From: Candidatus Stahliibacteriota bacterium | GTDB taxonomy: Bacteria > Hydrothermota > Tepidihabitantia > SM23-42 | Assembly (NCBI GenBank): GCA_030606265.1 | Contig: JAUWGT010000001.1 | Coordinates: 1-49,405, forward strand | DNA: 49,405 nucleotides | Reading direction: 5' to 3' | Shown here: in pieces, positions 5,245 through 45,260 of the stretch | Numbering within the stretch: position 1 is the stretch's first letter | How the letters are laid out: every line of letters starts with the position of its first letter | Notes under the pieces: generated by a model | What the model saw: only the letters and a program-made list of their open reading frames with translations | Database searches by the model: none | What the model was told of the DNA's origin: nothing | Position numbers and translations under genes: made by a program

Positions 5245-5715
5245 TTGACCCCACATAATCGAGGTGGGAGCGACTTTCCAGTCGCGATAACGGTTGTATT
5301 ATCTCCTATTCTCCCCGTCTCCCTTACTTCAATACCCAGTTATGCGCCATTATTTATTTACTTTTTCGCCTTACGCTCTACGCCCTACTCCATACTCTCT
5401 ACTCTCTTGTCTCCGTTTCCCCGATACTGTCTATTCAGTTTTTTTTGTAGTTGCCCGATTCATCCCCGCACCGCAGTGCCAAACCCGCTACGAACCTGTC
5501 TTGAGCTCTGTCGAGAGAGTAGCCATACCTCTTGTCTCCCTACGCCCTACTCCTTACTCTCTACTCTCTTGTCTCCGTTTCCCCGATACTCTGCAAACGG
5601 GGTTGACCCCGTTAGAGAATACTTTATCAATCTACTCAAATACCCAATACTGTAAAATCCCTTATTTCTGCTGATAGGATTAAGTAAAACTTAACGTTGG
5701 TATTCTCTAACGGGG
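5245..5715. repeat. intergenic mosaic of repeat modules (E-type ctactc/ccgttt motifs, A fragment, C-type inverted repeats)
   Basis: tctactctcttgtctccgtttccccgatact occurs twice (about 5396-5428 and 5558-5590). A perfect 16-bp inverted repeat ccccgttagagaatac (5607-5622) / gtattctctaacgggg (5700-5715) flanks 77 bp. Confidence 0.8.
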
Positions 5716-5743
5716 TTGACAAAATTAAAAACTTACATAGACT
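5716..5743 (+). promoter_or_regulatory. sigma-70 promoter abutting the start of the kinase-activator gene (leaderless geometry)
   Basis: TTGACA (5716-5721), 16 nt, TAGACT (5738-5743), then 6 nt (tctcat) to the ATG at 5750. No SD. The -35 is contiguous with the repeat motif aacggggTTGACa. Confidence 0.55.
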
Positions 5744-5749
5744 TCTCAT

Positions 5750-8700
5750 ATGCTTTCAAAGGGAAAACGTATACACAAGTATCGTGTCGTCGGGAAACTT
5801 GGAGAGAGTAATTATGCAACCATTTACAAAGTCACATCAGGCACCAGGAAAAATCTGGTTCTTAAAATCGCCCGCAAGAAAACCCATGAGCATAATGATC
5901 TAATTGAGCGTGAATATCAAATCCTCTCGCAATTCAAGCACCCGAATATCGTACCAGTCTATGATTATGACGTAACTGATAATGGCAAGGCATATTTTAC
6001 CCTTGAATATGTCTCAGGAAAACCCATAAATAAATGCTTCAATGATTTCTCAGATGATTTCATTGGCGCAGTAATTCAGGTTATTAATGGTTTGGGTGCA
6101 TTCCACAATAGGGAATTCATTCACAGCGATCTAAAACCAGAGCATATTCTCTATGACCAAAAAGAGAAAAAGGCAGTGCTTATTGATTTTGGGTTTGCCC
6201 AGGCGCGCCTTGCACAAACTGATACAAAACCCCAGAACATAGAACTGGCTGGCACAATCGACTACATGGCGCCTGAAGTCATTAAGGGAATCGGCATTGA
6301 TCAACGCAGTGATATCTATTCACTGGGTGTAATTATCTATGAAACCTTAGCAGGCAAAAAACCAAAAGATCCTTTTGTGCCGATACAGCAAGTACCTGAG
6401 GAGATAAATAATATGCTTGCCAGACTTGTCTCCAATGAACCAATAATAAGACCAACAATCCCCGAGCTCTATCAAATACTCGTCAAATATCTGAAGTCGA
6501 TCAAGATCGAGGTGCCCTCCTATGAAGTACACTTGCCCAATACTGGATTTGTCGAGATGCCCGAGATCATTGATGAATTGCTGACTACAGCAGGCAAAGT
6601 AATTGTGATTAATGGCGATACTGGTACGGGTAAAACAAGGTTATTGCAGGAAATAAAATCCAGGTATTTAAGCAGGGATTTTTCTGTATTATTTCATGCT
6701 GCTCAGGGGCTTACTAATTTTCTTGAAAGTCTGGAGGGTTTTGTCAGCAGCAAGAAAATTGCTTTTTTGAATAAAGAAGATCTATCTGCTGATGATCAGG
6801 CACGTAAGTTCCAGGTATTTGAAGAACTAAATGATTTGCTCATTGCTTTTGCAGAACAAAAAAAGACCGTGATTATTGTCGATGATCTTGACTGCTTGTC
6901 TGATTATCAACTCGGGTTATTCCGTTATATTGGTTACGGTATTCACGGTTCAAGCATATTGATAATTGGTGCTTCAAAAACAGATAGCAGAATCAAGAAC
7001 CTGGGTTTTGATATCATTAAATTGAAGCCTTTTACCCTTGATCAAATACAAGAATTGCTTGAAAAAACCTTTTTCAAGTTTGAGATTGAAAGAAAATCGA
7101 CGGTTCCTAAGGACAGAAGATTCACTAAATGGCTCCTCAAACAGAGTGGCGGTACACCATTGTTCATCGTGGAAATATTGAAAAATCTCCATAAGAACAA
7201 AGTCGTGTATTACAAAGCCAATAAGTGGCTTGTCCAGATGGATGTCCTTGGTAAGACTAAGATACCCTCGAGAATTGAAGACCTTTTGGAAAAACAGCTG
7301 AAAAATCTTGAAAAAGAAGAATTGACCATACTAAAAATCTTAGCCCTTGCACAGTATGCATTAGAGCCCGGCATTATCAGCTCAGTCCTGAAGACAAAGA
7401 GTGAAATCGCGATTGAACGTCTCAAGAATCTGGGTTTATTAAAAGAAAATATCGTGAATAACAGAAGGGTTGTATTTGTTGCAAATAAAATATTCGTTTT
7501 GATAATTGCTCGGTTGATTGAACGTAGTGAAGAGCAACGGCTCTGTAACACTCTCATAAAGGTCTTGGAAACCACACCTGAACACGAGAATTATGTATCA
7601 GTACTTGCTGAGCTGAGTGATAAAGTAGGACATGCTGAAAAAGCATACAAATATTCCCGGAAATCCGCAGATAATGCAGAAAAGATATATGATTATGATT
7701 CGACCGTGAAATATTATGAGAAGATGACCGAATACGTACAACTCATTCATTCAGTAGAATATCCAAGGATTTTGATAAAAATTGCCAAGATAAGCCAAAA
7801 AACAGGCGATAACAAAACAGCACTACAATATTATAATAAGGTTTTAAAACTAGGCGATAAAACGCTGCGGTCAGAAATCTACTCGGGATTGGGCAGGGTT
7901 TATTCTGGAATGGGCAAGCACACAAAGGCGATCAAGAATCTAAGAAAAGCGATGAATCTAATGAAAGAAAAAGAAACCCTGGATTACATAGCAGCAGCAA
8001 ATCGTCTAGTTTATTCTCTATTGTGTTCAAGCAATTTCAAAGAAGCAAAGAGCATATTAGACCAATCACTTGTCTTATCAAAACGGATTAACAATGTCGA
8101 GATGATGGCAGACACGTTTTATTATAAGGCAGTTTATGAATGGTTTAAAGGAGATTTTAACAAGGGCATTGAAAAAGCTAAGCAGTATTTAGAATTCGCA
8201 CAGAAACATAAGTTGTTAGCAAGCTATGCATATGCAGCAAACCTTCTGGGTTCTCTATACAAGCAAAAAAATGATCTGGAACAGGCACAGAGGTATATTG
8301 GAGAAGCAATTGATTGTTTCAGCGAAATGAAATTAATCAACGCTCTGTCGAGTGCATTGAGTCATCAGGCCTTATTTCAATTAGAATACGGGAATCTATC
8401 GATGGCAACGAAATCATTCAAAGATGTGTTAATCCAGGCGCAACAGATTGATAATCGAACCACGCAATATGTGTCTTTGTCAAACCTCGGCAGCATCAGT
8501 AATGATTCAGGAGAATTCAATAAGGCAATAGAATTCTATGAAAAATCGCTCAAAATTGAACCTGATGATGAACTCTCCAGATATGAATTATCTATGATAT
8601 ATTATAGAAAAGGTGAAATAGATAAAGCAAAATCGCAGCTCGAGAAGTTGACAATGAAAACCCAATACCCATTGTATTACATTGGCTTGGCATTGATCAA

Positions 8701-10666
8701 TCTTATTTTGGGAAAGAAAGAGCATGCTGACAAAATGCTTCTTAAAGAACTTAATACGAAAGAAATAGATGCGATGGATATTCGTGTAAGGATTGAATTC
8801 TTTTTAAAGACATCGCAATTTCATTATGAAAATGGAAATTTCGAGAAATCCATAGATTACTCAAAAAGAGTAATTGGATTGACAAACTCCCTGAGTAGGG
8901 AATATGCTATGGCGAGTGCTTTTGTAAAAATAGACCAATTCAATCTCAAGAAAATAAAGAATCTTGATATAGAAAAACAAACAACAAGATTAAAACAAAT
9001 GGGCTGCATTTACGACTATGCTTATCTTAAGAAACTGGAGATTGAATCAAAAATCGCCAGAGGGTTAGCACCAAAACAAATAAAGGAAATCGCCCACGAG
9101 TTAAATAAGGTGCAAGAAATCTTCGCCTCGCTTGGTGCTAATCTGGAACTCAATCGGGTCAGAAAGATTCAGGAAAAACTCTTTCCAATTGTTATTAAGG
9201 ACTACTCCCGAAGAGTGATATCTACAGAATATCTCAAGACCTTTTCAGAACTCGCCGAACTTATCAGTACCAAACTTGGTGATAAAGATTTTATCCAGAA
9301 TACACTCGATTTGATAATTCAAGCGACCAATGCTGAACGCGGTGCACTTTTTATCAATACTTCTGATGATATGGAGTTTGTTGCGGGCCGGAATATCGAT
9401 CGCACCACGATCAAAGATGCTGGGGAATTATCGAAAACCGCGATCAAAAAGATGTCACAGAATAGAATTATCTTTACTGAAGACGCCATATCTGATCCAC
9501 AATTCAATATCAAGAAAAGCGTAATACTCAACCAGATTCGTTCTTTACTGTGCATCCCTTTATCTGTATCTAATAAGGTTATTGGAGCAATATACCTTGA
9601 CTCAAGGCTTTTCAGCGACATATTTGGTCCTCAGGACAAAGACTTCTTAATCACGATTGCCAAAATACTTGGTTCAGTAATTGAAAAATCCCTGGCATTC
9701 CGCGCCCTGACTGAAGAGAACATTCTATTAAAGACCAAGATGATCCAGGAAATCGGTGCAGGTTATATTATCGGCAAGTCCGATCCTATGAAAAAGGTCT
9801 ATGAACTGATCGAGAGTGTTAGCCAGACTAATTCGCCAGTAGTCATACTTGGCGAAACTGGTACAGGTAAAGGCATGCTTGCCCGTCTTATTCACTTGAA
9901 AAGTAAACGACAGAATAGAAGATTTCTTACGATAAATTGTGGAACAATCCCTGAAACTCTCTTAGAATCAGAGCTCTTTGGTCATAAAAAAGGTGCATTT
10001 ACCGGTGCGGTAAACGACAAAACAGGATTATTAGAAGAAGGTGAAGCTGGAACTGTCTTCTTAGATGAGATCACAAATACCAGTGTTTCATTCCAGGCAA
10101 AACTCCTTGAGGCGATAGAAGACAAGATAATCCGCCGGGTCGGCGAGACACAAACCCGAAAAATCAATGTCAGATTCTTCTTTGCTACAAATCGAGACCT
10201 GGAGATTGAGATAGAAGAAAATAGATTTAGAAAAGACCTATTTTATCGTATTAATGTATTCAGTATTGAGGTACCGCCTTTAAGAGAACGGATATGTGAT
10301 ATCCCGGAGTTAGCGCAATTCTTCATGGAAAAATATAGCAAAGAGATAAACAAACCCTTAAAGGGGTTTACATTGGATGCTATGCAGAGATTAAAGGTAT
10401 ATCTCTGGCCTGGCAATGTACGGGAGCTTCAGAATATTATAGAAAGAGCTGTTATCCTGGCAAAGGATCAGTTGATTACAGTTTACGATCTGGGTTTTGA
10501 AAAATTAAAAGGAGCTGAGATTATGTCTTTGAAAGACATTAGAAAAGAAGCAATAATCGAGGCATTGAACGCAACCGGCTGGAATATAAAAAAAACAGCA
10601 GAATTGCTGATGATCGGGAGGACGAGCATTTACAGATATATGGAGATGTATGATATCACAAAGTAG
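5750..10666 (+). CDS. multidomain regulator: Ser/Thr protein kinase, STAND/AAA_16 P-loop NTPase, TPR array, GAF, sigma-54 interaction AAA+ domain, Fis-type HTH
   Basis: 1638 aa.
- Kinase: K39 in VLKIARK, HSDLKPEH, DFG, APE (aa 11-250).
- P-loop GDTGTGKT (aa 289-296) with Walker B VIIVDDLD.
- Long TPR-like helical repeats (about aa 600-1000).
- GAF-like block (...ERGALFINTSDDMEFVAGRN...IGAIYLDSRL).
- bEBP core GETGTGKGMLARLIH, ESELFGH, and GAFTGA at nt 9992-10009.
- C-terminal HTH TAELLMIGRTSIYRYM. Confidence 0.9.
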   Translation: MLSKGKRIHKYRVVGKLGESNYATIYKVTSGTRKNLVLKIARKKTHEHNDLIEREYQILSQFKHPNIVPVYDYDVTDNGKAYFTLEYVSGKPINKCFNDFSDDFIGAVIQVINGLGAFHNREFIHSDLKPEHILYDQKEKKAVLIDFGFAQARLAQTDTKPQNIELAGTIDYMAPEVIKGIGIDQRSDIYSLGVIIYETLAGKKPKDPFVPIQQVPEEINNMLARLVSNEPIIRPTIPELYQILVKYLKSIKIEVPSYEVHLPNTGFVEMPEIIDELLTTAGKVIVINGDTGTGKTRLLQEIKSRYLSRDFSVLFHAAQGLTNFLESLEGFVSSKKIAFLNKEDLSADDQARKFQVFEELNDLLIAFAEQKKTVIIVDDLDCLSDYQLGLFRYIGYGIHGSSILIIGASKTDSRIKNLGFDIIKLKPFTLDQIQELLEKTFFKFEIERKSTVPKDRRFTKWLLKQSGGTPLFIVEILKNLHKNKVVYYKANKWLVQMDVLGKTKIPSRIEDLLEKQLKNLEKEELTILKILALAQYALEPGIISSVLKTKSEIAIERLKNLGLLKENIVNNRRVVFVANKIFVLIIARLIERSEEQRLCNTLIKVLETTPEHENYVSVLAELSDKVGHAEKAYKYSRKSADNAEKIYDYDSTVKYYEKMTEYVQLIHSVEYPRILIKIAKISQKTGDNKTALQYYNKVLKLGDKTLRSEIYSGLGRVYSGMGKHTKAIKNLRKAMNLMKEKETLDYIAAANRLVYSLLCSSNFKEAKSILDQSLVLSKRINNVEMMADTFYYKAVYEWFKGDFNKGIEKAKQYLEFAQKHKLLASYAYAANLLGSLYKQKNDLEQAQRYIGEAIDCFSEMKLINALSSALSHQALFQLEYGNLSMATKSFKDVLIQAQQIDNRTTQYVSLSNLGSISNDSGEFNKAIEFYEKSLKIEPDDELSRYELSMIYYRKGEIDKAKSQLEKLTMKTQYPLYYIGLALINLILGKKEHADKMLLKELNTKEIDAMDIRVRIEFFLKTSQFHYENGNFEKSIDYSKRVIGLTNSLSREYAMASAFVKIDQFNLKKIKNLDIEKQTTRLKQMGCIYDYAYLKKLEIESKIARGLAPKQIKEIAHELNKVQEIFASLGANLELNRVRKIQEKLFPIVIKDYSRRVISTEYLKTFSELAELISTKLGDKDFIQNTLDLIIQATNAERGALFINTSDDMEFVAGRNIDRTTIKDAGELSKTAIKKMSQNRIIFTEDAISDPQFNIKKSVILNQIRSLLCIPLSVSNKVIGAIYLDSRLFSDIFGPQDKDFLITIAKILGSVIEKSLAFRALTEENILLKTKMIQEIGAGYIIGKSDPMKKVYELIESVSQTNSPVVILGETGTGKGMLARLIHLKSKRQNRRFLTINCGTIPETLLESELFGHKKGAFTGAVNDKTGLLEEGEAGTVFLDEITNTSVSFQAKLLEAIEDKIIRRVGETQTRKINVRFFFATNRDLEIEIEENRFRKDLFYRINVFSIEVPPLRERICDIPELAQFFMEKYSKEINKPLKGFTLDAMQRLKVYLWPGNVRELQNIIERAVILAKDQLITVYDLGFEKLKGAEIMSLKDIRKEAIIEALNATGWNIKKTAELLMIGRTSIYRYMEMYDITK

Positions 10667-10690
10667 ACTTGCATAATAGCACACAGCAAC

Positions 10691-10707
10691 TGTGCCATTT
10701 TGACACA
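10691..10707. promoter_or_regulatory. candidate enhancer (UAS) palindrome 1
   Basis: TGTGCCA-TTT-TGACACA. Confidence 0.55.
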
Positions 10708-10761
10708 CAGTCCATAGAATAAGCACTTAATTTCCAAGGCTTTACAAACTCCTCGTTCATA

Positions 10762-10778
10762 TGTGTCATTTTGACACA
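10762..10778. promoter_or_regulatory. candidate enhancer (UAS) palindrome 2
   Basis: TGTGTCA-TTT-TGACACA, a perfect palindrome 71 bp from site 1. Confidence 0.6.
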
Positions 10779-10832
10779 TAGACAAATCTGTAAGTGCCTT
10801 ACAGATAAGCATTTCCCAATCGGGTTTAGAAG

Positions 10833-10849
10833 TGTATCATTTTGATACA
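10833..10849. promoter_or_regulatory. candidate enhancer (UAS) palindrome 3
   Basis: TGTATCA-TTT-TGATACA, 71 bp from site 2 and 80 bp upstream of the -24 element. Confidence 0.55.
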
Positions 10850-10912
10850 CTTTCAGGAATTCTTTTCACTCCAACCTACGCGAATTTCCTTAAATCACAA
10901 GATTTTTCTTTC

Positions 10913-10928
10913 TGGCATATATTTTGCT
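10913..10928 (+). promoter_or_regulatory. sigma-54 (-24/-12) promoter 1
   Basis: TGGCATatattTTGCT. GG and GC have the canonical spacing of TGGCAC-N5-TTGC. It sits 27 nt upstream of the ATG at 10955, which is preceded by AAAGGAGA. Confidence 0.75.
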
Positions 10929-10954
10929 TATAAATAAACTGAAAGGAGAATAAC

Positions 10955-11158
10955 ATGAAGAAATTTTTCGCCTATGTTGTAATAAGCTTGCTCTTTGTGA
11001 GCATGTTTGGAATCGCCATCCAGAGTGTCAGTAATAATATAAAAGACGATGCTCCAGTAATCAGCAGTGCCCTTGATTTTATTAGCCCGGCAGTCGCATA
11101 TGCTGATACCGATACGGTCTTTGTGCCTCGTCCTCCTCCACCGCCACCAATTGATTAG
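10955..11158 (+). CDS. small signal-peptide protein (67 aa) with a C-terminal polyproline tail
   Basis: Strong SD (aaaggaga). MKKFFAYVVISLLFVSMFGIAIQS leader, acidic middle, and C-terminus VPRPPPPPPID. First gene behind sigma-54 promoter 1. No recognisable family. Confidence 0.5.
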   Translation: MKKFFAYVVISLLFVSMFGIAIQSVSNNIKDDAPVISSALDFISPAVAYADTDTVFVPRPPPPPPID

Positions 11159-11173
11159 AACGGAGTATAAAAC

Positions 11174-11368
11174 ATGAAAATATTGCATCTCTATGAAATC
11201 AAAATGGTTGACGGCACCAGGTATCAGGGTGAGATTGCATGCCGGGATAATAAGATGGTCGTGCTCAAGCTAAAACATCATCCAGTTGAGCAGAAACTCC
11301 GTCTCTATTACAATGGAATACTCTCAATCCGAGAACTGGGTTGGCAAAGAGCCTATGCACTGAAATAG
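11174..11368 (+). CDS. small conserved hypothetical protein (64 aa), paralog 1; possible Sm-like beta-barrel fold
   Basis: GGAG 8 nt upstream. 36/64 residues are identical to the 11618-11812 product, with shared blocks DGTRYQGEIA, VVL, KLRLY and GILSIRELGW. Confidence 0.65.
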   Translation: MKILHLYEIKMVDGTRYQGEIACRDNKMVVLKLKHHPVEQKLRLYYNGILSIRELGWQRAYALK

Positions 11369-11418
11369 AACAACGATTACGTTGAATTAGTGCTGTTAAC
11401 CAGGAATTACTGGCTGAG

Positions 11419-11435
11419 TGTGCCAAAATGGTACA
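11419..11435. promoter_or_regulatory. candidate enhancer (UAS) palindrome 4
   Basis: TGTGCCA-AAA-TGGTACA. Confidence 0.5.
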
Positions 11436-11491
11436 CTCAGGATTACAGTAAACGTAGTATTTGCAGGCGTTTGCACAAAGCTGCCTGAAAG

Positions 11492-11508
11492 TGTGTCATT
11501 TTGACACA
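11492..11508. promoter_or_regulatory. candidate enhancer (UAS) palindrome 5
   Basis: TGTGTCA-TTT-TGACACA, a perfect palindrome 73 bp from site 4 and 80 bp upstream of the -24 element (same spacing as site 3 to promoter 1). Confidence 0.6.
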
Positions 11509-11571
11509 CTTTCAGACGCGACTTCCACTCCAGTGTACATGAATTACCCTAAATCACAAGACTTCTCATTC

Positions 11572-11587
11572 TGGCACAGATTTTGCT
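11572..11587 (+). promoter_or_regulatory. sigma-54 (-24/-12) promoter 2
   Basis: TGGCACagattTTGCT, an exact consensus core. The ATG at 11618 is preceded by AAAGGAG. Confidence 0.8.
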
Positions 11588-11617
11588 CATTAATATGCCA
11601 TATAAGAAAGGAGTAAT

Positions 11618-11812
11618 ATGAAACCTGCACAGACTTACGAAGTCAAAATGCTCGACGGCACGAGATATCAGGGCGAAATTGCCTACCAAGATGAGGAAGT
11701 AGTAGTACTCAACATGCTAAGTAATCCAACAAGTCATAAACTGCGTCTGTACAATCACGGTATTCTATCGATCCGCGAATTAGGCTGGAAAAAAGGCCAC
11801 TTATCAGATTGA
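11618..11812 (+). CDS. small conserved hypothetical protein (64 aa), paralog 2; possible Sm-like beta-barrel fold
   Basis: See 11174-11368. It sits directly behind sigma-54 promoter 2. Confidence 0.65.
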   Translation: MKPAQTYEVKMLDGTRYQGEIAYQDEEVVVLNMLSNPTSHKLRLYNHGILSIRELGWKKGHLSD

Positions 11813-11846
11813 TCATCTTGGTTCAGATCAGTTGGTCCTTTAAGCA

Positions 11847-13070
11847 TTGATCAACTTAACTGATCATCTTACAGATAAAAGCATGTACATATATCTAATG
11901 TCAATCACTGTAGTATTGTTAAGCGCAGCAGTAATATTCAAATTAGCATCAGATGCCCGGCAAAACAAGCAACAGCTGATTATCTTACATGATATGGACC
12001 GCTCCATACTCTCTGGACTGAGCCATAGGGGTGTCATGAATGCAGTCGTCGACAAACTTATGTCTTTGCTCAAAGTTGATGCTGCTGCAATTCTTACTAT
12101 GAACAAGTACTATGGTTTCAAAGAAATTTTTTCAAATAACCTCGGTAGTAATTTCAGAAAAAACATCAAGTTAGAGGACAACGGCTTCTTCACTTCGGTA
12201 ATCGCTAATAGAAAACCTCTGATAATCTCAAAGATATCTAAAGATGAAGATGAGGGGTTCATCGGAACGATTAGAAACGAAGGTTTCATGGCTTACATGA
12301 GCACACCGATTATAGCAAAAGGTGGCATACCAACCGGCGTTTTAATGCTCTACTCAAGAAAACCAAGGAATTACACGAAGCAAGAGTTGAATCTTATTGA
12401 AGCAATAAACAGTCGGATAGGTATGGTGCTTGATCGCGCCTGGCTTATTGAAAGAATACAGGAGATCAATTTTGAATCAGTGCGTGCGCTTGTCGGAGCA
12501 ATTGAACTAAGAGACCCGTATACCATAGGACATTCTATCCAGGTCGCAGATCTATCACTCCTCATTGGCCGTGAATTAGAGTTTTCTGAAAGGAATCTCA
12601 ATTTAATCGAATTCGCAGGATTGCTCCACGATATCGGTAAAATCGTCGTACCCGAGGCTATCCTGCAGAAGAATGGCAAGTTAACAAAGGAAGAATGGAA
12701 GATCATCAAAATGCACGCGATCCACAGTGCGAAGATAATCGAACCAGTAGCAAATCTAAAGACAGTGCGGACCTGGGTATTATACCACCATGAAAAATGG
12801 GATGGTTCAGGTTATCCAGAAGGCAGGAAAGCTGAACAAATCCCTTTGCAGTCCAGGATACTTGCGGTCTGCGATGCGTATTCAGCGATGACCGGTAATC
12901 GACCTTATCGTAATGCACTCAGTGAAGAAGAAGCCAGAGATGAAATAACCCGTGTTGCCGGAAAACAACTGGACCCAAACATCGTTGACATATTCTTGTC
13001 ACTCAGTACGACTGGTTCTAGAATAAAAAAGAATTCAAGGAGGGACAAAAAGATCGTAGATATAAACTAA
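11847..13070 (+). CDS. membrane-anchored GAF-domain HD-GYP phosphohydrolase (probable c-di-GMP phosphodiesterase)
   Basis: 407 aa from the track's TTG. The ATG at 11883 (MYIYLMSITVVLLSAAVIF, a TM helix) is an equally plausible start. Central GAF-like region, then HD-GYP motifs HSIQVA, LLHDIGK and HHEKWDGSGYPEG. It lies 35-70 nt after the preceding small gene with no intervening terminator. Confidence 0.85.
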   Translation: MINLTDHLTDKSMYIYLMSITVVLLSAAVIFKLASDARQNKQQLIILHDMDRSILSGLSHRGVMNAVVDKLMSLLKVDAAAILTMNKYYGFKEIFSNNLGSNFRKNIKLEDNGFFTSVIANRKPLIISKISKDEDEGFIGTIRNEGFMAYMSTPIIAKGGIPTGVLMLYSRKPRNYTKQELNLIEAINSRIGMVLDRAWLIERIQEINFESVRALVGAIELRDPYTIGHSIQVADLSLLIGRELEFSERNLNLIEFAGLLHDIGKIVVPEAILQKNGKLTKEEWKIIKMHAIHSAKIIEPVANLKTVRTWVLYHHEKWDGSGYPEGRKAEQIPLQSRILAVCDAYSAMTGNRPYRNALSEEEARDEITRVAGKQLDPNIVDIFLSLSTTGSRIKKNSRRDKKIVDIN

Positions 13071-13100
13071 GGCACTCATACCTTCTCATATCGAACCTAC

Positions 13101-13139
13101 AGGAAGCCGGCTATTATATCCGGCTTCCTGTTCTTTTTA
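13101..13139. terminator. hairpin terminator between convergent genes (HD-GYP gene and addA)
   Basis: aggaagccgg / ccggcttcct 10-bp stem with a 9-nt loop, followed by gttcttttt on the plus strand. Confidence 0.7.
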
Positions 13140-13149
13140 TGATCACGGA

Positions 13150-16100
13150 TCACAATCTGGCTATTTTCTTGCCCCGAACCTTATCCAGATAGACCAGCAT
13201 TATTTCAATACATCTTCCCGGATAAATCTTTTCTATCCCCTTCTTGTAAATCCTCAGTTGTTGTTGGTGCTTAACCTCCTCCTCACCGGTTTTGTAGTCA
13301 ACTATAGTAATATGCCTGGCACCAACAATCAATCGGTCAATTTGACCTGACACATCTCTGTTTTTGTCTTCAAAATAAATGGGAACCTCGTTTTTACATA
13401 CCACATCACGCCCGTCTTTGAAAAACAGGGATCGCAAATCCGGATCAGTTAAAGTCTCCACCAATAACGGGGTAAGTCTCTTTTCGATGGATTGCGCATC
13501 GTCAGGTTGGCGTGCATACCTATCCTGGACACTACGCACGACGTTCGTAATCAATACCTGCAATTCGATATTGTCAAGCCATTCTATTTTACTGAGCGCC
13601 TGGTGTATCATCGAACCGAATTCCATACCTTGCCTTCGAGAAACACCGATTATCTCAAGCCCTCGTTCAGTCGGCGAATACAAGGAACGCTCTTCCTTGA
13701 TAAACGGACTTTCCCGTGTAATAGCGCCATACTTTTTGATTTTAGTCACCGCAGGTTTAATTTCTTTCTTCTCGCTTATCTCACCTCTTGAGTAAGTTGA
13801 AGCCCCGACTTTCTCAACGATCCTTTCGAACCAAAACCCCAACCCTCTTTTCCGGTGCTTAAACCCCAATACATGGATCCCGTTTCTTGCCCGCGTCAAA
13901 GCTACGTAAAGCAGATTCAGCTCATCCGTTTGTAAACGATCCTGTTCAGCATCTTTCAAACCTCGTAGATACTTACCATAATTCCGCCAGAATATCCTCT
14001 CAGGTTCAACACCGTTTGCTTTGTATGAAAACAGCAACTTCCTATCTTCATATGTCTTTACAGCCCAATTTGTCTCAGGTAATAGAATGACATCAAATTC
14101 TAACCCCTTGGCCTTATGGATCGTAAGGATCTGTACGCCCTGAGGATGTGCATCCTTCACCTGAATAGTCTTACCGATATCTCCAAGCCAATCAAGAAAA
14201 GAACTCAGGTGACCAAAATCCTCGGTCGTATATTCCAACGCAACATCCAAGAGGGTTGCCAGCGCGTACGTAACGTCTATTTCCAATTCTTCGTATATAC
14301 TATAAATCAATTCATAGGGGTTTGTATAATGCACTAATGCAAGTAACCTCTCCAGTTTCTTTACTGCCGGCCAACCCGGGTGGCTATTACGGAGCATAAG
14401 AAAAAACGTCTTCCCACGATGCATCAAACGCCGCAATACCTCCTCGTCCATAGCAAAAAATGGTGACAAGAGAGCATGGAACAAAGCAAAATCATTTTCC
14501 GGGTCATCAAGAAACTCAAGAAGCTTAACCATGGTCCGTACATCTGTATCGCTCATAATATCACATTTTGATCGGCTTACATGGGGTATGCCTGTCCGGG
14601 TAAGACCTTCGGCAAGAGCCACACCGAATTTATTGGTGCGTACAAGTACTGCAAGATTAGAGTATTCATAACCCGGATTATCATGAAGTTCCTTGATAAT
14701 CGAACATGTCCGTTCAATTATCTCTTGCCGTCCTTGTTCCATATCAGTGTATCCCCCGATTTCTTCAACCCTCACCCAGCCACCAGTATTTCCTGGTTCT
14801 ACCTTGTCTTCTTTATCAAGTACAAGGTTTACAAAATCGATAACCTCTGCCTTGCTGCGATGATTTGTTGTTAATTCCTCGCGTTTGATCCTGCCTGGGT
14901 ATTTATCGATCAATACGTCAAACAGTTCTGATGCGCCACCGCGCCACCGAAATATCGCTTGTTTTGGATCACCCACATAGAAAAGACTCTTTTCATCAGG
15001 ATCAAGTGATACGATCTCACTGATCAAGGGAACGATTATTTCGAGCTGGCGATAGCTCGTATCCTGGAATTCATCAATCATTAAATGGCTTATTTCTGCA
15101 CCGATCTTGAAGTATAGATACTCTATATCCGCACTGATTTCCAGAGCGCGCATAGTTAGAGATTCGATATCATCAAAACTAACCAAATTCCGCGTTCGCT
15201 TCTCCTCCTTGAATAAATTATGGATTTCCAGCAGGGGTTTCAAATAAATCACGATCTGCTGATCAGAAAGGGATCGCAAGTAATCATCCGTGCATGAAAA
15301 CAATGTATTCAATAGTTTATCGAGATCGCTTTTTTCCATCTCCAAATTATCAGCAAACTTCACAAAATAATTTTTCCCATCCAGGTCGCAACGCAAAATG
15401 GATTTTGTGTACTCAGACTTTTCCAATACTCCGAAATCCCTCGTCTCAAGATACTGATCAACCATCACACAGAGCCTAAGCAGGTCTTTATTCAAATGCG
15501 CACCATCCTTAGTAAACCCGGCATCCCCATGTTCACGGATGAACAAAGCAAGTTGTCTCAAAGAGCGGGCAAACTCGTTTCCTTTCACCGCGACCCTGGT
15601 CCTGATATCTTGCTCGCCTTTCATCAATTCACCGAGGAAATCCAGCCATGGAATTATGCTCCAGTAGATCGACTCTATACTTGCCTTCACTCTGGTCTCT
15701 TGCGCTTGAACAAAATCCTGTATTATCTTCAACCGCGCTTCACTATGACCACTCCCCTCAAAGAATTTGTCCAGAACTGATTCATAGATAACTAATTTAT
15801 AGGCATCGTCGATTATTCTGTAGCCGGGCAAAATACCGGCTGCAAATGGAATGCTCGAGAGGAAAGAAGCAAACAGACTGTGGAATGTGTAAATATTGAA
15901 TTCTGAAAGGTTATCGAGCAAATATCTTTTTTTGCATTTTGCTCGTTCTTTTACATTTGAGAAATGTTTGTTAAAGTACTCGATTATTTCCATTTTTGAT
16001 TTGTCATCTGAAGTTCCGTTAATAAGTAGCTCAAGGTACTCTAAAACTCGTGTTTTCATTTCAAATGCCGCTTCATTTGTGAAGGTGATGCCATATAAGG

Positions 16101-16218
16101 ATTTCAGCGGGTAATCTGCCTCGTGTAGAAAAAGATAGAGAAAACGCTTTGTCAAAGCGCGCGTCTTACCGGCTCCAGCCGACGACATCAAAGCAGTGTG
16201 TTCTATCTTCTCAGGCAC
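13150..16218 (-). CDS. addA: UvrD/Rep-family helicase with C-terminal RecB-type PD-(D/E)XK nuclease (AddA/RexA-like)
   Basis: 1022 aa. Walker A SAGAGKT, motif II MIDEFQDTS, and C-terminal nuclease motif GQIDRLIV...IVDYKTG. Confidence 0.85.
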   Translation of the reverse strand: MPEKIEHTALMSSAGAGKTRALTKRFLYLFLHEADYPLKSLYGITFTNEAAFEMKTRVLEYLELLINGTSDDKSKMEIIEYFNKHFSNVKERAKCKKRYLLDNLSEFNIYTFHSLFASFLSSIPFAAGILPGYRIIDDAYKLVIYESVLDKFFEGSGHSEARLKIIQDFVQAQETRVKASIESIYWSIIPWLDFLGELMKGEQDIRTRVAVKGNEFARSLRQLALFIREHGDAGFTKDGAHLNKDLLRLCVMVDQYLETRDFGVLEKSEYTKSILRCDLDGKNYFVKFADNLEMEKSDLDKLLNTLFSCTDDYLRSLSDQQIVIYLKPLLEIHNLFKEEKRTRNLVSFDDIESLTMRALEISADIEYLYFKIGAEISHLMIDEFQDTSYRQLEIIVPLISEIVSLDPDEKSLFYVGDPKQAIFRWRGGASELFDVLIDKYPGRIKREELTTNHRSKAEVIDFVNLVLDKEDKVEPGNTGGWVRVEEIGGYTDMEQGRQEIIERTCSIIKELHDNPGYEYSNLAVLVRTNKFGVALAEGLTRTGIPHVSRSKCDIMSDTDVRTMVKLLEFLDDPENDFALFHALLSPFFAMDEEVLRRLMHRGKTFFLMLRNSHPGWPAVKKLERLLALVHYTNPYELIYSIYEELEIDVTYALATLLDVALEYTTEDFGHLSSFLDWLGDIGKTIQVKDAHPQGVQILTIHKAKGLEFDVILLPETNWAVKTYEDRKLLFSYKANGVEPERIFWRNYGKYLRGLKDAEQDRLQTDELNLLYVALTRARNGIHVLGFKHRKRGLGFWFERIVEKVGASTYSRGEISEKKEIKPAVTKIKKYGAITRESPFIKEERSLYSPTERGLEIIGVSRRQGMEFGSMIHQALSKIEWLDNIELQVLITNVVRSVQDRYARQPDDAQSIEKRLTPLLVETLTDPDLRSLFFKDGRDVVCKNEVPIYFEDKNRDVSGQIDRLIVGARHITIVDYKTGEEEVKHQQQLRIYKKGIEKIYPGRCIEIMLVYLDKVRGKKIARL

Positions 16219-19560: not shown

Positions 19561-19569
19561 TTGTTGATT

Positions 19570-44423: not shown

Positions 44424-45260
44424 CTTACTCGAAGAGTAAAGAGTTACTGTTCGAGCCTTGTTCGAGACAGGCAAGCGAAGTTGATGCCAATGCTGCTCAC
44501 AGTTTTAGTGTGATTGCAGCAATGAACATCCCGTGTGCTGTGTGCGGGAGAACTCAATTGTAGTGGCTCGATCCTTCAATTACATTCAGGACAGGTTCAT
44601 CGAGCAGTCTGATAAATCCCGCAATCCTGTTTGTAGAATTACAATACGAAGCGGGATAAATCACTTGTCCGCCTCAGGCAGAGACGACTCCAGCGCAGCA
44701 TATCTTCAGTGAAACGTGTCTCCAGCCGACCTATCTCGAATTATGATGAGAGGAGGCGTGTCCCCAGCGTAGCATGTCTTCAACAGAGTGTGTTCTCCGT
44801 TACTCCGATACTGTCTATTCAGTTCTCTTTTTGTAGTCGCCCGATTCATCGGGCATTATCTGATAAACCTGTCCTGTCTGTCCCGAGTATATCGAGGGGA
44901 ACGCAGTTGAAGGATCAGAAAACTACAGCGCATCGTGCACGAAATATGCCTCAATCTCCGATTGAGCTGCAGATTCCAGTGTATCGAACGAATGTGAGAT
45001 GTCTTCAACGGAGTGTATTCACCGTTACTCCCTTACTCCAATACCCAGTTATACTCCGTTACAATATTTACACCCAGCGCAGCGGGTCTATTTTGTGTTT
45101 TTTCACATTACGCTCTACACCCTACGATTTACGCTTCTTTTCCTCTCCCTTTTCAAGAAAGAGGGATAAGGAATAGAGAGTAGAAAATAGGGCGACTACA
45201 ATAGCGTAGCGTAAAGCTAGGGCGCCAATAACTCAATTACTGAGTTACTTAATAACTGCT
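44424..45260. repeat. intergenic mosaic of repeat modules (inverted copy of 19281-19452, B, F, E, A, G)
   Basis: 44424-44617 is the inverted copy of 19281-19452. The B element lies at 44618-44661. ccagccgacctatctcgaattatgatgagaggaggcgtgtc matches the 33465 region. ttgtagtcgcccgattcatcgggc is module A-like. aataactcaattactgagttacttaataactg is the reverse of 33200-33232. Confidence 0.85.

What the first reader, a model, noticed from the sequence alone, without database searches (positions are those of the whole stretch)
5716..13139. Kinase-STAND-TPR-GAF-sigma-54 activator mega-protein with an apparent private sigma-54 regulon directly downstream
One 1638-aa ORF fuses several modules:
- an apparently active Hanks-type Ser/Thr kinase (K39, HSDLKPEH, DFG, APE)
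- a STAND/AAA_16-type P-loop (GDTGTGKT, VIIVDDLD)
- a long TPR array and a GAF domain
- a complete bacterial enhancer-binding module (GETGTGKG, GAFTGA, Fis HTH)

Kinase + AAA_16 + TPR is the PknK/MalT-like layout. There the output is normally a LuxR-type HTH, not a sigma-54 AAA+ motor, and canonical bEBPs are gated by receiver, PAS or GAF domains rather than a eukaryote-like kinase plus a second NTPase switch.

Immediately 3' of the gene lie five copies of a 17-bp palindrome and two consensus -24/-12 promoters. These drive tiny ORFs and probably a GAF-HD-GYP c-di-GMP phosphodiesterase, and the block ends at a strong hairpin terminator (13101-13139). As a unit it looks like an undescribed signalling module: phosphorylation- and NTP-gated sigma-54 activation of small effector proteins plus c-di-GMP turnover.
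Basis: partly seen in the sequence, partly recalled or inferred. Interest (0 to 1): 0.8.

Follow-up and report, generated by a model that had tools for sequence, protein, structure and literature searches.

The report
Kinase-STAND sigma-54 activator with private regulon
A giant regulator from an uncultured WOR-3/Stahlbacteria bacterium fuses a protein kinase, a STAND ATPase switch, TPR repeats and a complete NifA-like sigma-54 activator, and sits beside its own enhancer sites and sigma-54 promoters for two tiny proteins and a c-di-GMP phosphodiesterase; the family is common in databases but I found no study of it.

Summary
One 1638-aa ORF (5750-10666) carries Pkinase, AAA_16/STAND, TPR, GAF, Sigma54_activat and a Fis-type HTH.

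Downstream lie five palindromes (3+2) and the window's only two consensus -24/-12 promoters.
- Promoter 1 precedes a 67-aa polyproline-tailed membrane or exported peptide (p67) and a 64-aa protein (p64a).
- Promoter 2 precedes a p64 paralog (p64b) and a GAF-HD-GYP enzyme, ending at a strong terminator.

- The architecture is not rare. More than 100 full-length homologs exist in WOR-3, and the same domain order occurs in Acidobacteriota, Latescibacterota, Planctomycetota and Myxococcota.
- I found no paper describing it.
- Linkage to the cassette is strongly conserved. Starting from p64 in metagenomes, 26 of 30 loci have the activator immediately upstream.
- The HTH recognition helix covaries with the palindrome half-site.
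- Enhancers are spaced 70-71 bp in 18 of 18 intervals, and most often 73-74 bp from the -24 element.
- The p64 model has an Hfq/Sm-like fold.

Caveats:
- The kinase is atypical in this clade: the Mg-binding Asn is His and the Gly-rich loop is degenerate.
- Phosphorylation and NTP gating are inferred, not shown.
- rpoN could not be checked.

Verdict: a new variant of a known kind, of moderate to high interest.

The parts
5716..5743 (+). Sigma-70-like promoter candidate (TTGACA-16-TAGACT) just upstream of the regulator gene. The ATG lies 7 nt after the -10 element, so the mRNA may be leaderless or have a very short leader.
   Evidence: Consensus scan, 10 of 12 matches; sequence read. Function not tested.
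5750..10666 (+). Mega-regulator gene, 1638 aa: kinase, STAND NTPase, TPR array, GAF, sigma-54 AAA+ and Fis-type HTH.
   Evidence: ORF; Pfam; NCBIfam; full-length homologs.
5780..6499 (+). Hanks-type kinase domain (aa 11-250). K39, E55, D127, K129, D146-F-G and A174-P-E are conserved. The Asn132 position is His and the Gly-rich loop is degenerate.
   Evidence: Pkinase 4.7e-39; residue conservation over 112 homologs.
6560..7339 (+). STAND/AAA_16 NTPase module (aa 271-530): Walker A GDTGTGKT, Walker B VIIVDD, GxP motif SGGTPLF.
   Evidence: AAA_16 and NB-ARC hits; conservation; nearest PDB entry PH0952, a TPR-sensor STAND, E = 1.9e-6.
7550..9049 (+). TPR array (roughly aa 600-1100), MalT-like sensor or scaffold region. 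It is the least conserved part of the protein (33-48% identity in orthologs at 40-60% overall identity).
   Evidence: TPR_12, TPR_MalT and other TPR hits; per-domain identities.
9230..9709 (+). GAF domain (aa 1161-1320). It is highly conserved (62-97% identity across orthologs).
   Evidence: GAF 2e-8; NifA model covers aa 1167-1589; per-domain identities.
9767..10501 (+). Sigma-54 interaction AAA+ core and lid (aa 1340-1584): Walker A GETGTGKG, GAFTGA, Walker B VFLDEI.
   Evidence: Sigma54_activat 1e-65 and AAA_lid_14; conservation; PDB NifA 3.6e-77.
10529..10645 (+). Fis-type HTH (aa 1594-1632), recognition helix GRTSIYRYM.
   Evidence: HTH_8 6.6e-9; covariation of the helix with the enhancer half-site.
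10691..10707 (.). Enhancer (UAS) 1a, TGTGCCATTTTGACACA, centre 10699.
10762..10778 (.). Enhancer 1b, TGTGTCATTTTGACACA, centre 10770, 71 bp from 1a.
10833..10849 (.). Enhancer 1c, TGTATCATTTTGATACA, centre 10841, 71 bp from 1b and 73 bp from the -24 GG of promoter 1.
10913..10928 (+). Sigma-54 promoter P1, TGGCATATATTTTGCT (-24 GG at 10914-5, -12 GC at 10926-7).
   Evidence: An equivalent promoter sits at the same position in orthologous loci.
10955..11158 (+). p67: 67-aa protein with an N-terminal hydrophobic anchor or signal sequence, a conserved PAVAYAD(S/T)DT motif, and a C-terminal PPPPPPP-I-D immediately before the stop codon.
   Evidence: ORF; no Pfam or NCBIfam hit; close homologs only; family consensus from 31 loci.
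11174..11368 (+). p64a: 64-aa protein with an Hfq/Sm-like fold. Its SD (GGAG) lies 4-7 nt after the p67 stop codon.
   Evidence: AF2 pLDDT 87.4; the top 50 Foldseek hits are all Hfq, TM 0.61-0.69; narrow family of 17 clusters.
11419..11435 (.). Enhancer 2a (degenerate), TGTGCCAAAATGGTACA, centre 11427.
11492..11508 (.). Enhancer 2b, TGTGTCATTTTGACACA, centre 11500, 73 bp from 2a and 73 bp from the -24 GG of promoter 2.
11572..11587 (+). Sigma-54 promoter P2, TGGCACAGATTTTGCT.
11618..11812 (+). p64b: 64-aa paralog of p64a (59% identity), with weak Hfq-related HMM hits.
11883..13070 (+). Membrane-anchored GAF-HD-GYP protein (395 aa), a putative c-di-GMP phosphodiesterase. HD at aa 249, HHE...GYP at aa 302-312. 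Probably co-transcribed with p64b.
   Evidence: HD_5 1.8e-41 and GAF 1.2e-11; motifs; an HD-GYP gene lies within 2 kb downstream in 23 of 31 p64 loci.
13099..13139 (+). Intrinsic terminator: 12-bp GC-rich stem plus T-tract. It is shared with the convergent addA gene.
   Evidence: MFE -24.6 kcal/mol, z = -5.64.

Best explanation
This is a one-component sigma-54 activator with its own local regulon, in a WOR-3/Stahlbacteria-like genome.

**Shown**
- One polypeptide joins a PknK/MalT-like front end (Hanks-type kinase, STAND NTPase, TPR array) to a complete NifA/NorR-like back end (GAF, sigma-54 AAA+ with GAFTGA, Fis-type HTH).
- The gene is followed by two enhancer-promoter units.
- In each unit, palindromes (TGTGTCA-N3-TGACACA) are spaced about 71 bp apart, and the last one lies 73 bp from a consensus -24/-12 promoter.
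- Unit 1 precedes p67 (a small polyproline-tailed membrane or exported peptide) and p64a.
- Unit 2 precedes p64b and a GAF-HD-GYP enzyme.
- The linkage, the enhancer geometry and an HTH-to-half-site specificity code are all conserved across dozens of divergent loci.

**Inferred**
- Dimers of the regulator bind the phased palindromes through the HTH.
- An input signal sensed by the TPR and/or GAF domains drives nucleotide-dependent oligomerisation of the STAND module, following the MalT/PH0952 paradigm. It also relieves GAF repression of the AAA+ core, following the NifA/NorR paradigm.
- The AAA+ domains then form the ring that remodels sigma-54 holoenzyme at P1 and P2.
- The kinase domain adds a phosphorylation or nucleotide-sensing input, most simply by trans-autophosphorylation within the oligomer.
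- Outputs are Sm-like small proteins (possibly RNA- or regulator-binding), the p67 peptide, and lowered c-di-GMP through the HD-GYP enzyme.
For: - **Domains and motifs:**
- **Local exclusivity:** the window's only two -24/-12 promoters and its only five palindromes lie directly 3' of the gene.
- **Synteny from the regulator side:** the regulator, then p67, then p64, usually then HD-GYP, in the window, L001, L003, L004/L007, L005, L009, L011 and L135.
- **Synteny from the p64 side:**
  - 26 of 30 metagenomic p64 loci with at least 1.5 kb of upstream DNA have the activator module immediately upstream.
  - 14 of 14 with at least 5.6 kb upstream also have the kinase domain.
  - 31 of 43 have a -24/-12 element within 450 nt upstream.
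  - 23 of 31 have HD-GYP within 2 kb downstream.
- **Covariation:** recognition-helix residue Q/E pairs with GCGACA-N3-TGTCGC in 9 of 10 loci; Y pairs with GTGnCA/GTTCCA-N3-TGnCAC in 8 of 8; H pairs with GTGCCA or GGGACA.
- **Geometry:** enhancer spacing is 70-71 bp in 18 of 18 intervals. The proximal enhancer lies 73-74 bp from the -24 GG in 13 of 23 loci.
- **Conservation:** GAFTGA and both sets of Walker motifs are conserved in about 100-112 of 112 homologs.
- **c-di-GMP context recurs:** HD-GYP in most loci, GAF-GGDEF upstream in L004, MshEN plus a T2SSE ATPase in L135.
Against: - No rpoN gene was found in the window or in the fetched loci. The rest of the genome could not be searched.
- No expression, binding or activity data exist.
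- The kinase departs from the canonical active-site pattern in this clade (Asn to His, degenerate Gly-rich loop), so phosphotransfer is uncertain.
- The input signal is unknown.
- Whether the STAND module oligomerises, and how it couples to the AAA+ ring, is entirely by analogy.
- The regulon may extend beyond this locus.
- One WOR-3 locus (L013) has enhancers, promoter and HD-GYP but no p67 or p64.
- 4 of 30 p64 loci lack a detectable activator within 1.5 kb.
Confidence: 0.75

Rival explanations
1. The N-terminal kinase domain is a pseudokinase in this clade. It would bind nucleotide or act as a dimerisation scaffold without transferring phosphate, so the protein is gated by STAND and GAF only.
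For: - The Mg-binding Asn of the catalytic loop is His in 82 of 112 homologs, including this one.
- The Gly-rich loop lacks GxGxxG: the window has G-E-S-N-Y-A and the family consensus is E-E-G-N-Y-A.
- Versions in other phyla keep the canonical HxDLKPQN and GxGxxG, so the WOR-3 clade is the derived state.
Against: - K39, E55, D127, K129, the DFG Asp, APE and the activation-loop GT are invariant or nearly so (110-112 of 112). That pattern is more typical of a working active site.
- His can ligate a metal.
- 30 of 112 family members keep Asn.
Confidence: 0.3
2. p67 and/or p64 are not downstream effectors but feedback partners of the regulator. One version has p64 binding and damping the AAA+ ring, as PspA does to PspF. 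Another has the processed Pro-rich C-terminal tail of p67 as the ligand of the TPR sensor, forming an autoinducer-like loop.
For: - p67 and p64 co-occur with this regulator family almost exclusively, and both families are very narrow.
- p67 has a conserved A-Y-A|D motif, which resembles an AXA signal-peptidase site, followed by a conserved polyproline tail ending in an acidic or hydrophobic residue.
- From general knowledge, TPR domains commonly bind extended C-terminal peptides.
- Sm-like proteins form rings of a similar order to bEBP rings.
Against: - There is no direct evidence.
- The regulator has no transmembrane or periplasmic part, so an exported peptide would need re-import.
- The best structural matches to p64 are RNA chaperones.
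- L013 has the enhancers and promoter but no p67 or p64.
Confidence: 0.25
3. The palindromes are operators for a different DNA-binding protein encoded elsewhere, and the adjacency to the mega-regulator is coincidental.
For: No binding data exist. Inverted repeats of the TGT-N11-ACA type are generic.
Against: - The half-site sequence covaries with the recognition helix of the adjacent regulator across 23 non-redundant loci.
- The sites occur only here in the 49 kb.
- They keep fixed spacing to a sigma-54 promoter, which requires an enhancer-binding protein.
Confidence: 0.05
4. The locus is an antiphage defence system of the STAND/Avs or kinase type rather than a transcriptional signalling module.
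For: PADLOC and NCBIfam give domain-level hits of the kinase to defence-associated kinases (mad6/MADS6, PD-T4-6) and of the AAA+ core to RtcR-type models.
Against: - The hits are generic, single-domain similarities.
- No defence model matches the STAND part, p67, p64 or the architecture as a whole.
- The protein has a complete bEBP output with cognate promoters.
- The neighbours are housekeeping genes.
- The locus is syntenic across species rather than lying in a variable island.
Confidence: 0.03
5. The 1638-aa ORF is an assembly chimera or a read-through of separate genes.
For: In one relative (L135) the kinase is called as a separate ORF overlapping the rest by 20 nt.
Against: - 112 homologs of 1500 aa or more, from many independent assemblies, align end to end.
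- The same domain order occurs in five other phyla.
Confidence: 0.02

Closest known systems
NifA / NorR / FhlA-type bEBPs (GAF, sigma-54 AAA+, Fis-type HTH)
   Same: - The C-terminal third (aa ~1160-1638) is a complete member of this layout.
- The NifA NCBIfam model covers aa 1167-1589 (6.3e-102) and PDB NifA matches at 3.6e-77.
- GAFTGA and the Walker motifs are intact.
- It has multiple upstream palindromic enhancers. Three sites recall NorR (title and abstract of PMC2831303, seen).
   Different: - About 1150 extra N-terminal residues: kinase, STAND and TPR.
- The score is below the NifA equivalog cut-off (342 against 529 bits), so it is not NifA itself.
- The enhancers have a TGT-N11-ACA outline and sit 70-71 bp apart. 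From my own knowledge, that is much wider and more regular than the classical NtrC, NifA or NorR arrangements.
PknK (Mycobacterium tuberculosis), MalT, and the LAL and PH0952 STAND-TPR regulators
   Same: - Kinase, AAA_16 and MalT-like TPR occur in the PknK order.
- STAND Walker A, Walker B and GxP motifs are present.
- The nearest solved structure is the TPR-sensor STAND PH0952, 6mfv.
   Different: - The output is a GAF-gated sigma-54 AAA+ motor plus a Fis-type HTH, not a LuxR-type HTH (MalT and LAL regulators) or no DNA-binding output at all (PknK, from my own knowledge).
- It therefore has two different NTPase engines in one chain.
Hfq / Sm-like proteins (for p64)
   Same: - The predicted five-stranded bent beta-sheet superposes on Hfq with TM 0.61-0.69, and with rmsd 1.0-1.5 A over 51 columns for many of the hits (up to 8.3 A for others).
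- All top 50 Foldseek hits are Hfq.
- There are weak Hfq_1 and Hfq_rel_Cyano HMM hits.
   Different: - The HMM scores are below the cut-offs (18 against 27 bits, and 17.7 against 52).
- The model has no N-terminal helix.
- By inspection there is no YKH Sm2 motif.
- It is encoded as a sigma-54-dependent gene, often in several copies, next to a specific regulator.
HD-GYP c-di-GMP phosphodiesterases (RpfG type)
   Same: HD_5 at 1.8e-41, with HD and HHE...GYP motifs intact.
   Different: The sensor is a transmembrane anchor plus GAF rather than a receiver domain. Activity and substrate were not tested.
PspF-PspA, and secretion-monitoring arrest peptides (SecM, MifM, VemP) or exported Phr-type pro-peptides (analogies for p64 and p67)
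   Same: - A bEBP encoded beside a small protein that could feed back on it (like PspA).
- p67 has an N-terminal signal or transmembrane segment and a C-terminal proline-rich stretch directly before its stop codon.
- The next gene's SD lies a few nucleotides downstream.
   Different: These are analogies from general knowledge only. There is no sequence similarity. The gene downstream of p67 is not a secretion component. No arrest or processing has been shown.

Membership tests
Bacterial enhancer-binding protein (sigma-54 activator, PF00158) | Full-length match to the sigma-54 interaction AAA+ domain above the curated cut-off. | tested here: met
   Sigma54_activat 220.9 bits against a 20.2-bit cut-off, profile positions 1-168 of 168.
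Bacterial enhancer-binding protein (sigma-54 activator, PF00158) | GAFTGA loop, Walker A and Walker B. | tested here: met
   GAFTGA, GETGTGKG and VFLDEI are present and conserved in about 100-112 of 112 homologs.
Bacterial enhancer-binding protein (sigma-54 activator, PF00158) | C-terminal DNA-binding HTH with cognate upstream enhancer sites and -24/-12 promoters. | tested here: met
   HTH_8; palindromes and promoters; covariation and conserved geometry. Physical binding was not tested.
Bacterial enhancer-binding protein (sigma-54 activator, PF00158) | Sigma-54 (rpoN) encoded in the same genome. | not testable with these tools
   rpoN is absent from the 49-kb window and from 1.76 Mb of fetched loci.
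STAND NTPase (MalT / AAA_16 clade) | P-loop NTPase with Walker A, an hhhhDD Walker B and a GxP motif, followed by a repeat-type sensor domain. | tested here: met
   - AAA_16 scores 50 bits against a 32.6-bit cut-off, with NB-ARC and TPR_MalT hits.
- G289/G292/G294/K295, D378-D379 and SGG(N/T)PLF are conserved.
- PH0952 is the best PDB hit.
STAND NTPase (MalT / AAA_16 clade) | Ligand- and nucleotide-dependent oligomerisation. | not testable with these tools
   This needs biochemistry.
Hanks-type Ser/Thr kinase | Pkinase HMM above the cut-off, and the catalytic K, E, D, K, DFG and APE residues. | tested here: met
   134.8 bits against a 31.7-bit cut-off. K39, E55, D127, K129, D146 and APE are conserved in 110-112 of 112 homologs.
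Hanks-type Ser/Thr kinase | Mg-binding Asn at the end of the catalytic loop (HRDLKPxN), and the GxGxxG loop. | tested here: not met
   - The position is His here and in 82 of 112 homologs (Asn in 30).
- The Gly-rich loop reads G-E-S-N-Y-A here, and the family consensus lacks GxGxxG.
- It should therefore be filed as an atypical kinase-like domain. Activity is unknown.
LAL / MalT-family transcription factors | C-terminal LuxR-type HTH output. | tested here: not met
   There is no GerE/LuxR hit. The output is Sigma54_activat plus HTH_8.
HD-GYP phosphodiesterase | HD_5-type HD domain with the HD and GYP signature residues. | tested here: met
   HD_5 at 142 bits; HD at aa 249 and HHEKWDGSGYP at aa 302-312. 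Enzymatic activity was not tested.
Hfq / Sm family (p64) | Sm fold. | tested here: met
   AF2 model with pLDDT 87.4. Foldseek TM 0.61-0.69 to Hfq structures, probability 1.00, E = 2e-3 to 8e-3.
Hfq / Sm family (p64) | Sequence-family membership (HMM above the cut-off, and the Sm2 RNA-binding motif). | tested here: not met
   - Hfq_1 scores 18 bits against 27, and Hfq_rel_Cyano 17.7 against 52.
- The PDB profile search finds nothing.
- No YKH motif is seen by inspection of A2.

The most novel reading that the evidence does not exclude
The module could be a self-contained signalling circuit of a kind not yet described. A STAND-type oligomerisation switch plus a kinase-like domain would assemble a sigma-54 AAA+ ring on enhancers phased every ~71 bp. 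The circuit's products would then close the loop in one of two ways.

- The exported or membrane peptide p67 is cleaved after the conserved AYA motif, and its polyproline C-terminal tail is sensed by the regulator's TPR array.
- Alternatively, the terminal polyproline stalls ribosomes and sets translation of the adjacent Sm-like p64.

In either case p64 would act as a dedicated RNA-binding or ring-binding effector, coupled to c-di-GMP degradation.
Probability: 0.15. Interest if true: 0.85.

Novelty: new variant of a known kind. Interest (0 to 1): 0.6.

Why it matters
Sigma-54 activators are a textbook case of signal-gated AAA+ assembly, and their known gates are receiver, PAS, GAF, V4R and similar domains. 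This family adds a second NTPase switch (STAND) and a eukaryote-like kinase domain in the same chain.

It also comes with an unusually clean, compact and evolutionarily conserved readout:
- its own enhancers, with a readable HTH-to-half-site code;
- a fixed 70-71 bp phasing;
- two consensus promoters;
- three small target genes.

That makes the coupling of STAND oligomerisation to bEBP ring formation directly testable in vitro or in a heterologous sigma-54 host.

The work also identifies two small protein families specific to this module, one with an Sm/Hfq-like fold and one with a polyproline tail, plus a recurrent link to c-di-GMP enzymes. All of this sits in a candidate phylum (WOR-3) whose signalling is essentially unstudied.

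Tried and rejected
- **Literature.** Eight full-text searches and eight papers read (one further look-up failed, because the paper was not held). None found a description of a kinase-STAND-sigma-54 activator, of p64 or p67, or of sigma-54 signalling in WOR-3. The myxobacterial kinome paper (PMC2572974), which may mention kinase-sigma-54 fusions, is not held. Prior mention in surveys therefore cannot be excluded.
- **rpoN.**
  - It is not in the window.
- **Paralog specificity within one genome.** The second paralog on the 2.85-Mb WOR-3 chromosome (P0019, L134) runs into an assembly gap, so its downstream region is unreadable.
- **p64 sequence searches.** A PDB profile search gave only chance-level hits. 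Only the fold comparison was informative.
- **Genome scan.** Only about 10 in-family genomes were returned, and the rest were distant STAND proteins. Those distant loci still showed the same architecture in other phyla.
- **ORFs upstream of the regulator.** The ORFs at 5245-5655 and 5294-5674 are not conserved as proteins and lie in repeat-rich, C/T-rich DNA. I rejected them as genes.
- **Defence-system reading.** Rejected, because the PADLOC hits are domain-level only.
  - The first metagenome scan with the 16-sequence p64 alignment failed for lack of a conserved stretch. It was repeated with closer sequences.
  - The terminator scanner missed the 13099-13131 hairpin, probably because of its loop or stem limits. 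It was confirmed by folding.

Full report
**1. Checking the observation**

The ORF at 5750-10666 (+, ATG start, 1638 aa) is real. Pfam finds the following on that one polypeptide:
- Pkinase, aa 11-207, 4.7e-39
- AAA_16, aa 280-390, 50 bits against a 32.6-bit cut-off (with NB-ARC at 271-503)
- a TPR array with a TPR_MalT signal, aa 673-993
- GAF, aa 1181-1309
- a full-length Sigma54_activat domain, aa 1340-1507, 1e-65
- AAA_lid_14
- HTH_8, aa 1594-1632

Immediately 3' of the gene, TGGCAY-N5-TTGCW occurs at 10913 and 11572. It occurs nowhere else in the 49 kb, where 0.15 matches are expected by chance.

The 17-bp palindrome TGTGTCATTTTGACACA occurs at 10691, 10762, 10833, 11419 (degenerate) and 11492, and nowhere else (0.23 expected).

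The downstream ORFs are:
- a 67-aa protein, p67, at 10955-11158;
- two 64-aa paralogs, p64a at 11174-11368 and p64b at 11618-11812, 59% identical;
- a GAF + HD_5 protein with intact HD and GYP motifs.

The terminal hairpin is strong: -24.6 kcal/mol, z = -5.6.

- 5716 is a sigma-70-like -35 hexamer, not the gene start.
- The HD-GYP gene probably starts at the ATG at 11883.
- The hairpin stem is 13099-13131.

**2. Is the fusion an artefact, and is it unique?**

Neither. A search of 5.8 billion proteins returned, among the best 120 hits, 112 proteins of 1500 aa or more that align end to end with the query. Most come from 'candidate division WOR-3' MAGs and are annotated 'sigma 54-interacting transcriptional regulator' or 'Nif-specific regulatory protein'.

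Two of them lie on one 2.85-Mb WOR-3 chromosome, so genomes can carry paralogs. The closest genomes are an 'uncultured bacterium' (89-97% identity per domain) and a Candidatus Stahlbacteria MAG (77-94%).

A genome scan with the STAND module also recovered loci in other phyla that encode kinase, STAND, GAF and sigma-54 AAA+ in the same order on one strand:
- Acidobacteriota: L025, with two tandem copies, and L069
- Latescibacterota: L033, L034, L038, L049, L066
- Planctomycetia: L052
- Myxococcales: L064

The architecture is therefore widespread. What is missing is any study of it. Eight full-text searches and a reading of kinome, sigma-54-regulon and WOR-3 papers found nothing. One potentially relevant paper, PMC2572974, is not held.

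**3. Anatomy of the regulator**

Conservation was measured over the 112 homologs.

The bEBP core is intact:
- Walker A G/T/G/K in 108-111 of 112
- the GAFTGA positions in 81-111 of 112 (the second position is Ala in 81 and Ser in 28; the other five are conserved in 102-111)
- Walker B D-E in 112 of 112

The STAND module has these features:
- Walker A (G292, G294, K295 in 111-112)
- Walker B D378-D379
- a conserved SGG(N/T)PLF GxP motif

Its nearest solved structure is PH0952, a TPR-sensor STAND (6mfv, E = 1.9e-6). The C-terminal third is closest to NifA, both by the NCBIfam model over aa 1167-1589 and by PDB entry 9qq6 at 3.6e-77.

In short, the protein is a PknK/MalT-like front end fused to a NifA/NorR-like back end.

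Across orthologs, GAF and AAA+ are the best-conserved parts (62-97% identity). The TPR array is the least conserved (33-48%). That pattern fits a diversifying sensor or scaffold region.

The kinase domain keeps these residues in 110-112 of 112 homologs:
- K39, E55, D127, K129
- the DFG Asp and APE
- the activation-loop G-T

It departs from the canon in two ways:
- The Mg-binding Asn at the end of the catalytic loop is His here and in 82 of 112 homologs.
- The Gly-rich loop is degenerate.

The Acidobacteriota versions are canonical, with HNDLKPQN or HGDLKPQN in the three Acidobacteriota proteins and a G-x-G-x-x-G loop in two of them. 'Apparently active' should therefore read 'atypical; activity unknown'.

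In one relative (L135) the kinase is a separate, overlapping ORF, which is either a split gene or a frameshift. It remains linked to the rest of the regulator.

**4. Is the downstream cassette the regulator's own regulon?**

Three independent lines say yes.

*(a) Synteny from the regulator side.* The same order is found in the window, L005, L001, L003, L004/L007, L009, L011 and L135, down to about 40-55% regulator identity. The order is regulator, sigma-54 promoter, p67, p64, and usually HD-GYP.

*(b) Synteny from the target side.* A metagenome scan with p64 returned 49 loci. Analysis of those loci gave the following:

| Loci considered | Feature | Count |
|---|---|---|
| at least 1.5 kb of upstream DNA | homologous activator module within 1.5 kb, same strand | 26 of 30 |
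| at least 5.6 kb of upstream DNA | kinase domain also present upstream | 14 of 14 |
| at least 300 nt of upstream DNA | -24/-12 element within 450 nt upstream | 31 of 43 |
| at least 2.2 kb of downstream DNA | HD-GYP within 2 kb downstream | 23 of 31 |

The p64 family itself is tiny: 17 clusters at 50% identity among 1.84 billion representatives.

*(c) Specificity code and geometry.* Across 23 non-redundant loci, the palindrome half-site tracks one residue of the Fis-type recognition helix, X in R-x-[S/T]-[I/L/V]-X-R-Y:

| Residue X | Enhancer | Loci |
|---|---|---|
| Q or E | GCGACA-N3-TGTCGC | 9 of 10 |
| Y (as in this window, GRTSIYRYM) | GTGnCA or GTTCCA-N3-TGnCAC | 8 of 8 |
| H | GTGCCA...TGGCAC or GGGACA...TGTCCC | 4, plus 1 GGGACA locus whose helix was not parsed |

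Enhancer centres are 70-71 bp apart in 18 of 18 intervals. The distance from the proximal enhancer to the -24 GG was:
- 73-74 bp in 13 loci;
- 59-60 bp in 5 loci;
- 71 bp in 1 locus;
- 142-145 bp in 4 loci, probably because one site was missed.

In the window the centres are 10699, 10770 and 10841, followed by the -24 GG at 10914. The second unit has centres at 11427 and 11500, followed by the GG at 11573.

Covariation of this kind is hard to explain unless the adjacent regulator binds these sites. From my own knowledge, such wide and regular phasing is unusual for bEBPs. It suggests a defined higher-order nucleoprotein assembly of this very large protein.

Sigma-54 promoters also lie 400-570 nt downstream of the Acidobacteriota and Latescibacterota versions. 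In L025 the promoter is followed by a small signal-peptide ORF.

**5. The targets**

*p64.*
- An AlphaFold2 model built from a 16-sequence alignment (pLDDT 87.4) is a five-stranded small barrel.
- All top 50 Foldseek PDB hits are Hfq (TM 0.61-0.69; rmsd 1.0-1.5 A over 51 columns for many of them).
- Two independent HMM libraries give weak Hfq-related hits, below their cut-offs.
- It lacks the Hfq N-terminal helix and, by inspection, the YKH motif.
- I file it as Sm/Hfq-like in fold, not as a member of the Hfq family.
- Copy number per locus ranges from 1 to 5.

*p67.*
- It has no family assignment.
- Thirty-one loci share a clear pattern: MKK plus a hydrophobic stretch of about 20 aa; a variable stretch of about 20 aa; a conserved PAVAYAD(S/T)DT motif; a short linker; and a run of 5-8 prolines ending one to three residues before the stop codon.
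- The A-Y-A|D motif looks like a signal-peptidase site.
- The SD of p64a lies 4-7 nt after the p67 stop codon.
- These features allow speculative readings only: a released Pro-rich peptide, or a polyproline translational pause that affects p64.

*The third target.* It is a membrane-anchored GAF-HD-GYP protein. Related loci instead carry or add a GAF-GGDEF gene (L004), a receiver-domain gene (L001, L004), or an MshEN domain plus a T2SSE ATPase (L135). The c-di-GMP context is therefore recurrent.

**6. Most likely mechanism**

Shown:
- the fused architecture;
- the conserved private enhancer-promoter-target units;
- the HTH-to-site specificity code.

Inferred from established paradigms:
- Dimers bind the phased palindromes.
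- A signal sensed by the TPR and/or GAF domains drives STAND nucleotide exchange and oligomerisation, as in MalT and PH0952. It also relieves GAF repression, as in NifA and NorR.
- The AAA+ ring then forms and remodels sigma-54 holoenzyme at P1 (p67-p64a) and P2 (p64b-HD-GYP).
- The kinase-like domain supplies a further input: autophosphorylation, or nucleotide sensing and dimerisation if it is a pseudokinase.

Outputs would be Sm-like small proteins, the p67 peptide and c-di-GMP hydrolysis.

Confidence:
- about 0.75 that the regulator drives these promoters through these sites;
- about 0.4 for the specific gating logic.

**7. What could not be settled**

- **rpoN.** It is absent from the window and from the fetched loci. 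The conservation of GAFTGA and of -24/-12 elements across dozens of loci argues indirectly for a functional sigma-54.
- Also unknown: the input signal, kinase activity, STAND behaviour, the functions of p64 and p67, and the extent of the regulon.

**8. Rivals rejected**

- Chimera or frameshift.
- Antiphage defence system, because the PADLOC hits are domain-level only.
- Palindromes that belong to another regulator.

**9. Verdict**

This is a new, unstudied variant of known kinds: a bEBP whose input is a STAND module plus a kinase-like domain. It has an unusually well-defined and conserved local regulon and enhancer geometry.

It is not unique, and by domain content it is not categorically new. 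It is a good, directly testable system. Interest 0.6.

Noticed in passing
window 5378-5428, 5540-5590 and 44794-44850: A 51-nt C/T-rich direct repeat occurs twice, 162 nt apart, in the 800-bp intergenic region upstream of the regulator. A third, related copy (89% over 57 nt) lies 39 kb away. It looks like a small dispersed repeat or MITE-like element. The ORFs called over it (5245-5655, 5294-5674) are not conserved as proteins.
   Followed up: partly
window 5606-5622 / 5700-5716: A perfect 17-nt inverted repeat flanks 77 nt and abuts the candidate -35 (TTGACA, 5716) of the regulator gene. GGGGTTGAC is duplicated at both ends. The ~100-nt segment is missing from the orthologous upstream region of L001, which suggests a recent insertion or duplication next to the promoter.
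   Followed up: partly
window 10699-10914 and 11427-11573; also 23 related loci: Enhancer sites are phased at 70-71 bp (18 of 18 intervals). The proximal site most often lies 73-74 bp from the -24 GG. This is a strikingly regular array for a sigma-54 enhancer region.
   Followed up: yes
window 19561-20859 (+): A second HD-GYP protein, this one with an N-terminal 7TM (HisKA_7TM-like) region. It is 41% identical to the cassette HD-GYP over the catalytic domain and lies 6.5 kb downstream of the module. The equivalent gene is also present in L005.
   Followed up: partly
window 13150-18973 (-): An AddA/AddB-type helicase-nuclease pair (UvrD-helicase + PDDEXK_1; ADDB_N + PDDEXK_1) converges on the cassette terminator. 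The same neighbour is present in L001 and L003.
   Followed up: no
window 26219-28810 (-) and 31885-33153 (-): Large proteins with type IX secretion C-terminal sorting domains (Por_Secre_tail, CHU_C), and neighbouring BNR/Sortilin-repeat proteins. These indicate a T9SS-type secretion system in this organism.
   Followed up: no
L135 220-915 and 896-5032; 6379-8000: In this relative the kinase domain is a separate 231-aa ORF overlapping the STAND-TPR-GAF-bEBP gene by 20 nt (a split gene or a frameshift). The p67-p64 pair is followed by an MshEN-domain gene and a T2SSE ATPase gene, which is another c-di-GMP-linked neighbour.
   Followed up: partly
L025 9056-14332 and 15233-20326: An Acidobacteriota contig carries two tandem genes of the same kinase-STAND-GAF-sigma-54 architecture (1758 and 1697 aa). 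A sigma-54 promoter and a 99-aa signal-peptide ORF lie between them, and an HD-GYP gene lies about 5 kb upstream.
   Followed up: partly
L118, L098, L102 (metagenome loci): p64 occurs in 3-5 hits per locus in some metagenomic contigs, so the Sm-like gene can be locally amplified.
   Followed up: no
P0013: A full-length homolog (56% identity) is deposited under 'Theionarchaea archaeon DG-70', and another partial one (P0091) under 'Coxiella sp. DG_40'. These are probably mis-binned WOR-3 contigs rather than true archaeal or Coxiella genes.
   Followed up: no
L013 13556-14022: One WOR-3 ortholog has the two enhancers and a -24/-12-like element, but then about 350 nt with no p67 or p64 homolog before the HD-GYP gene. 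This could be a loss of the small genes or an unrecognised small RNA or ORF.
   Followed up: no
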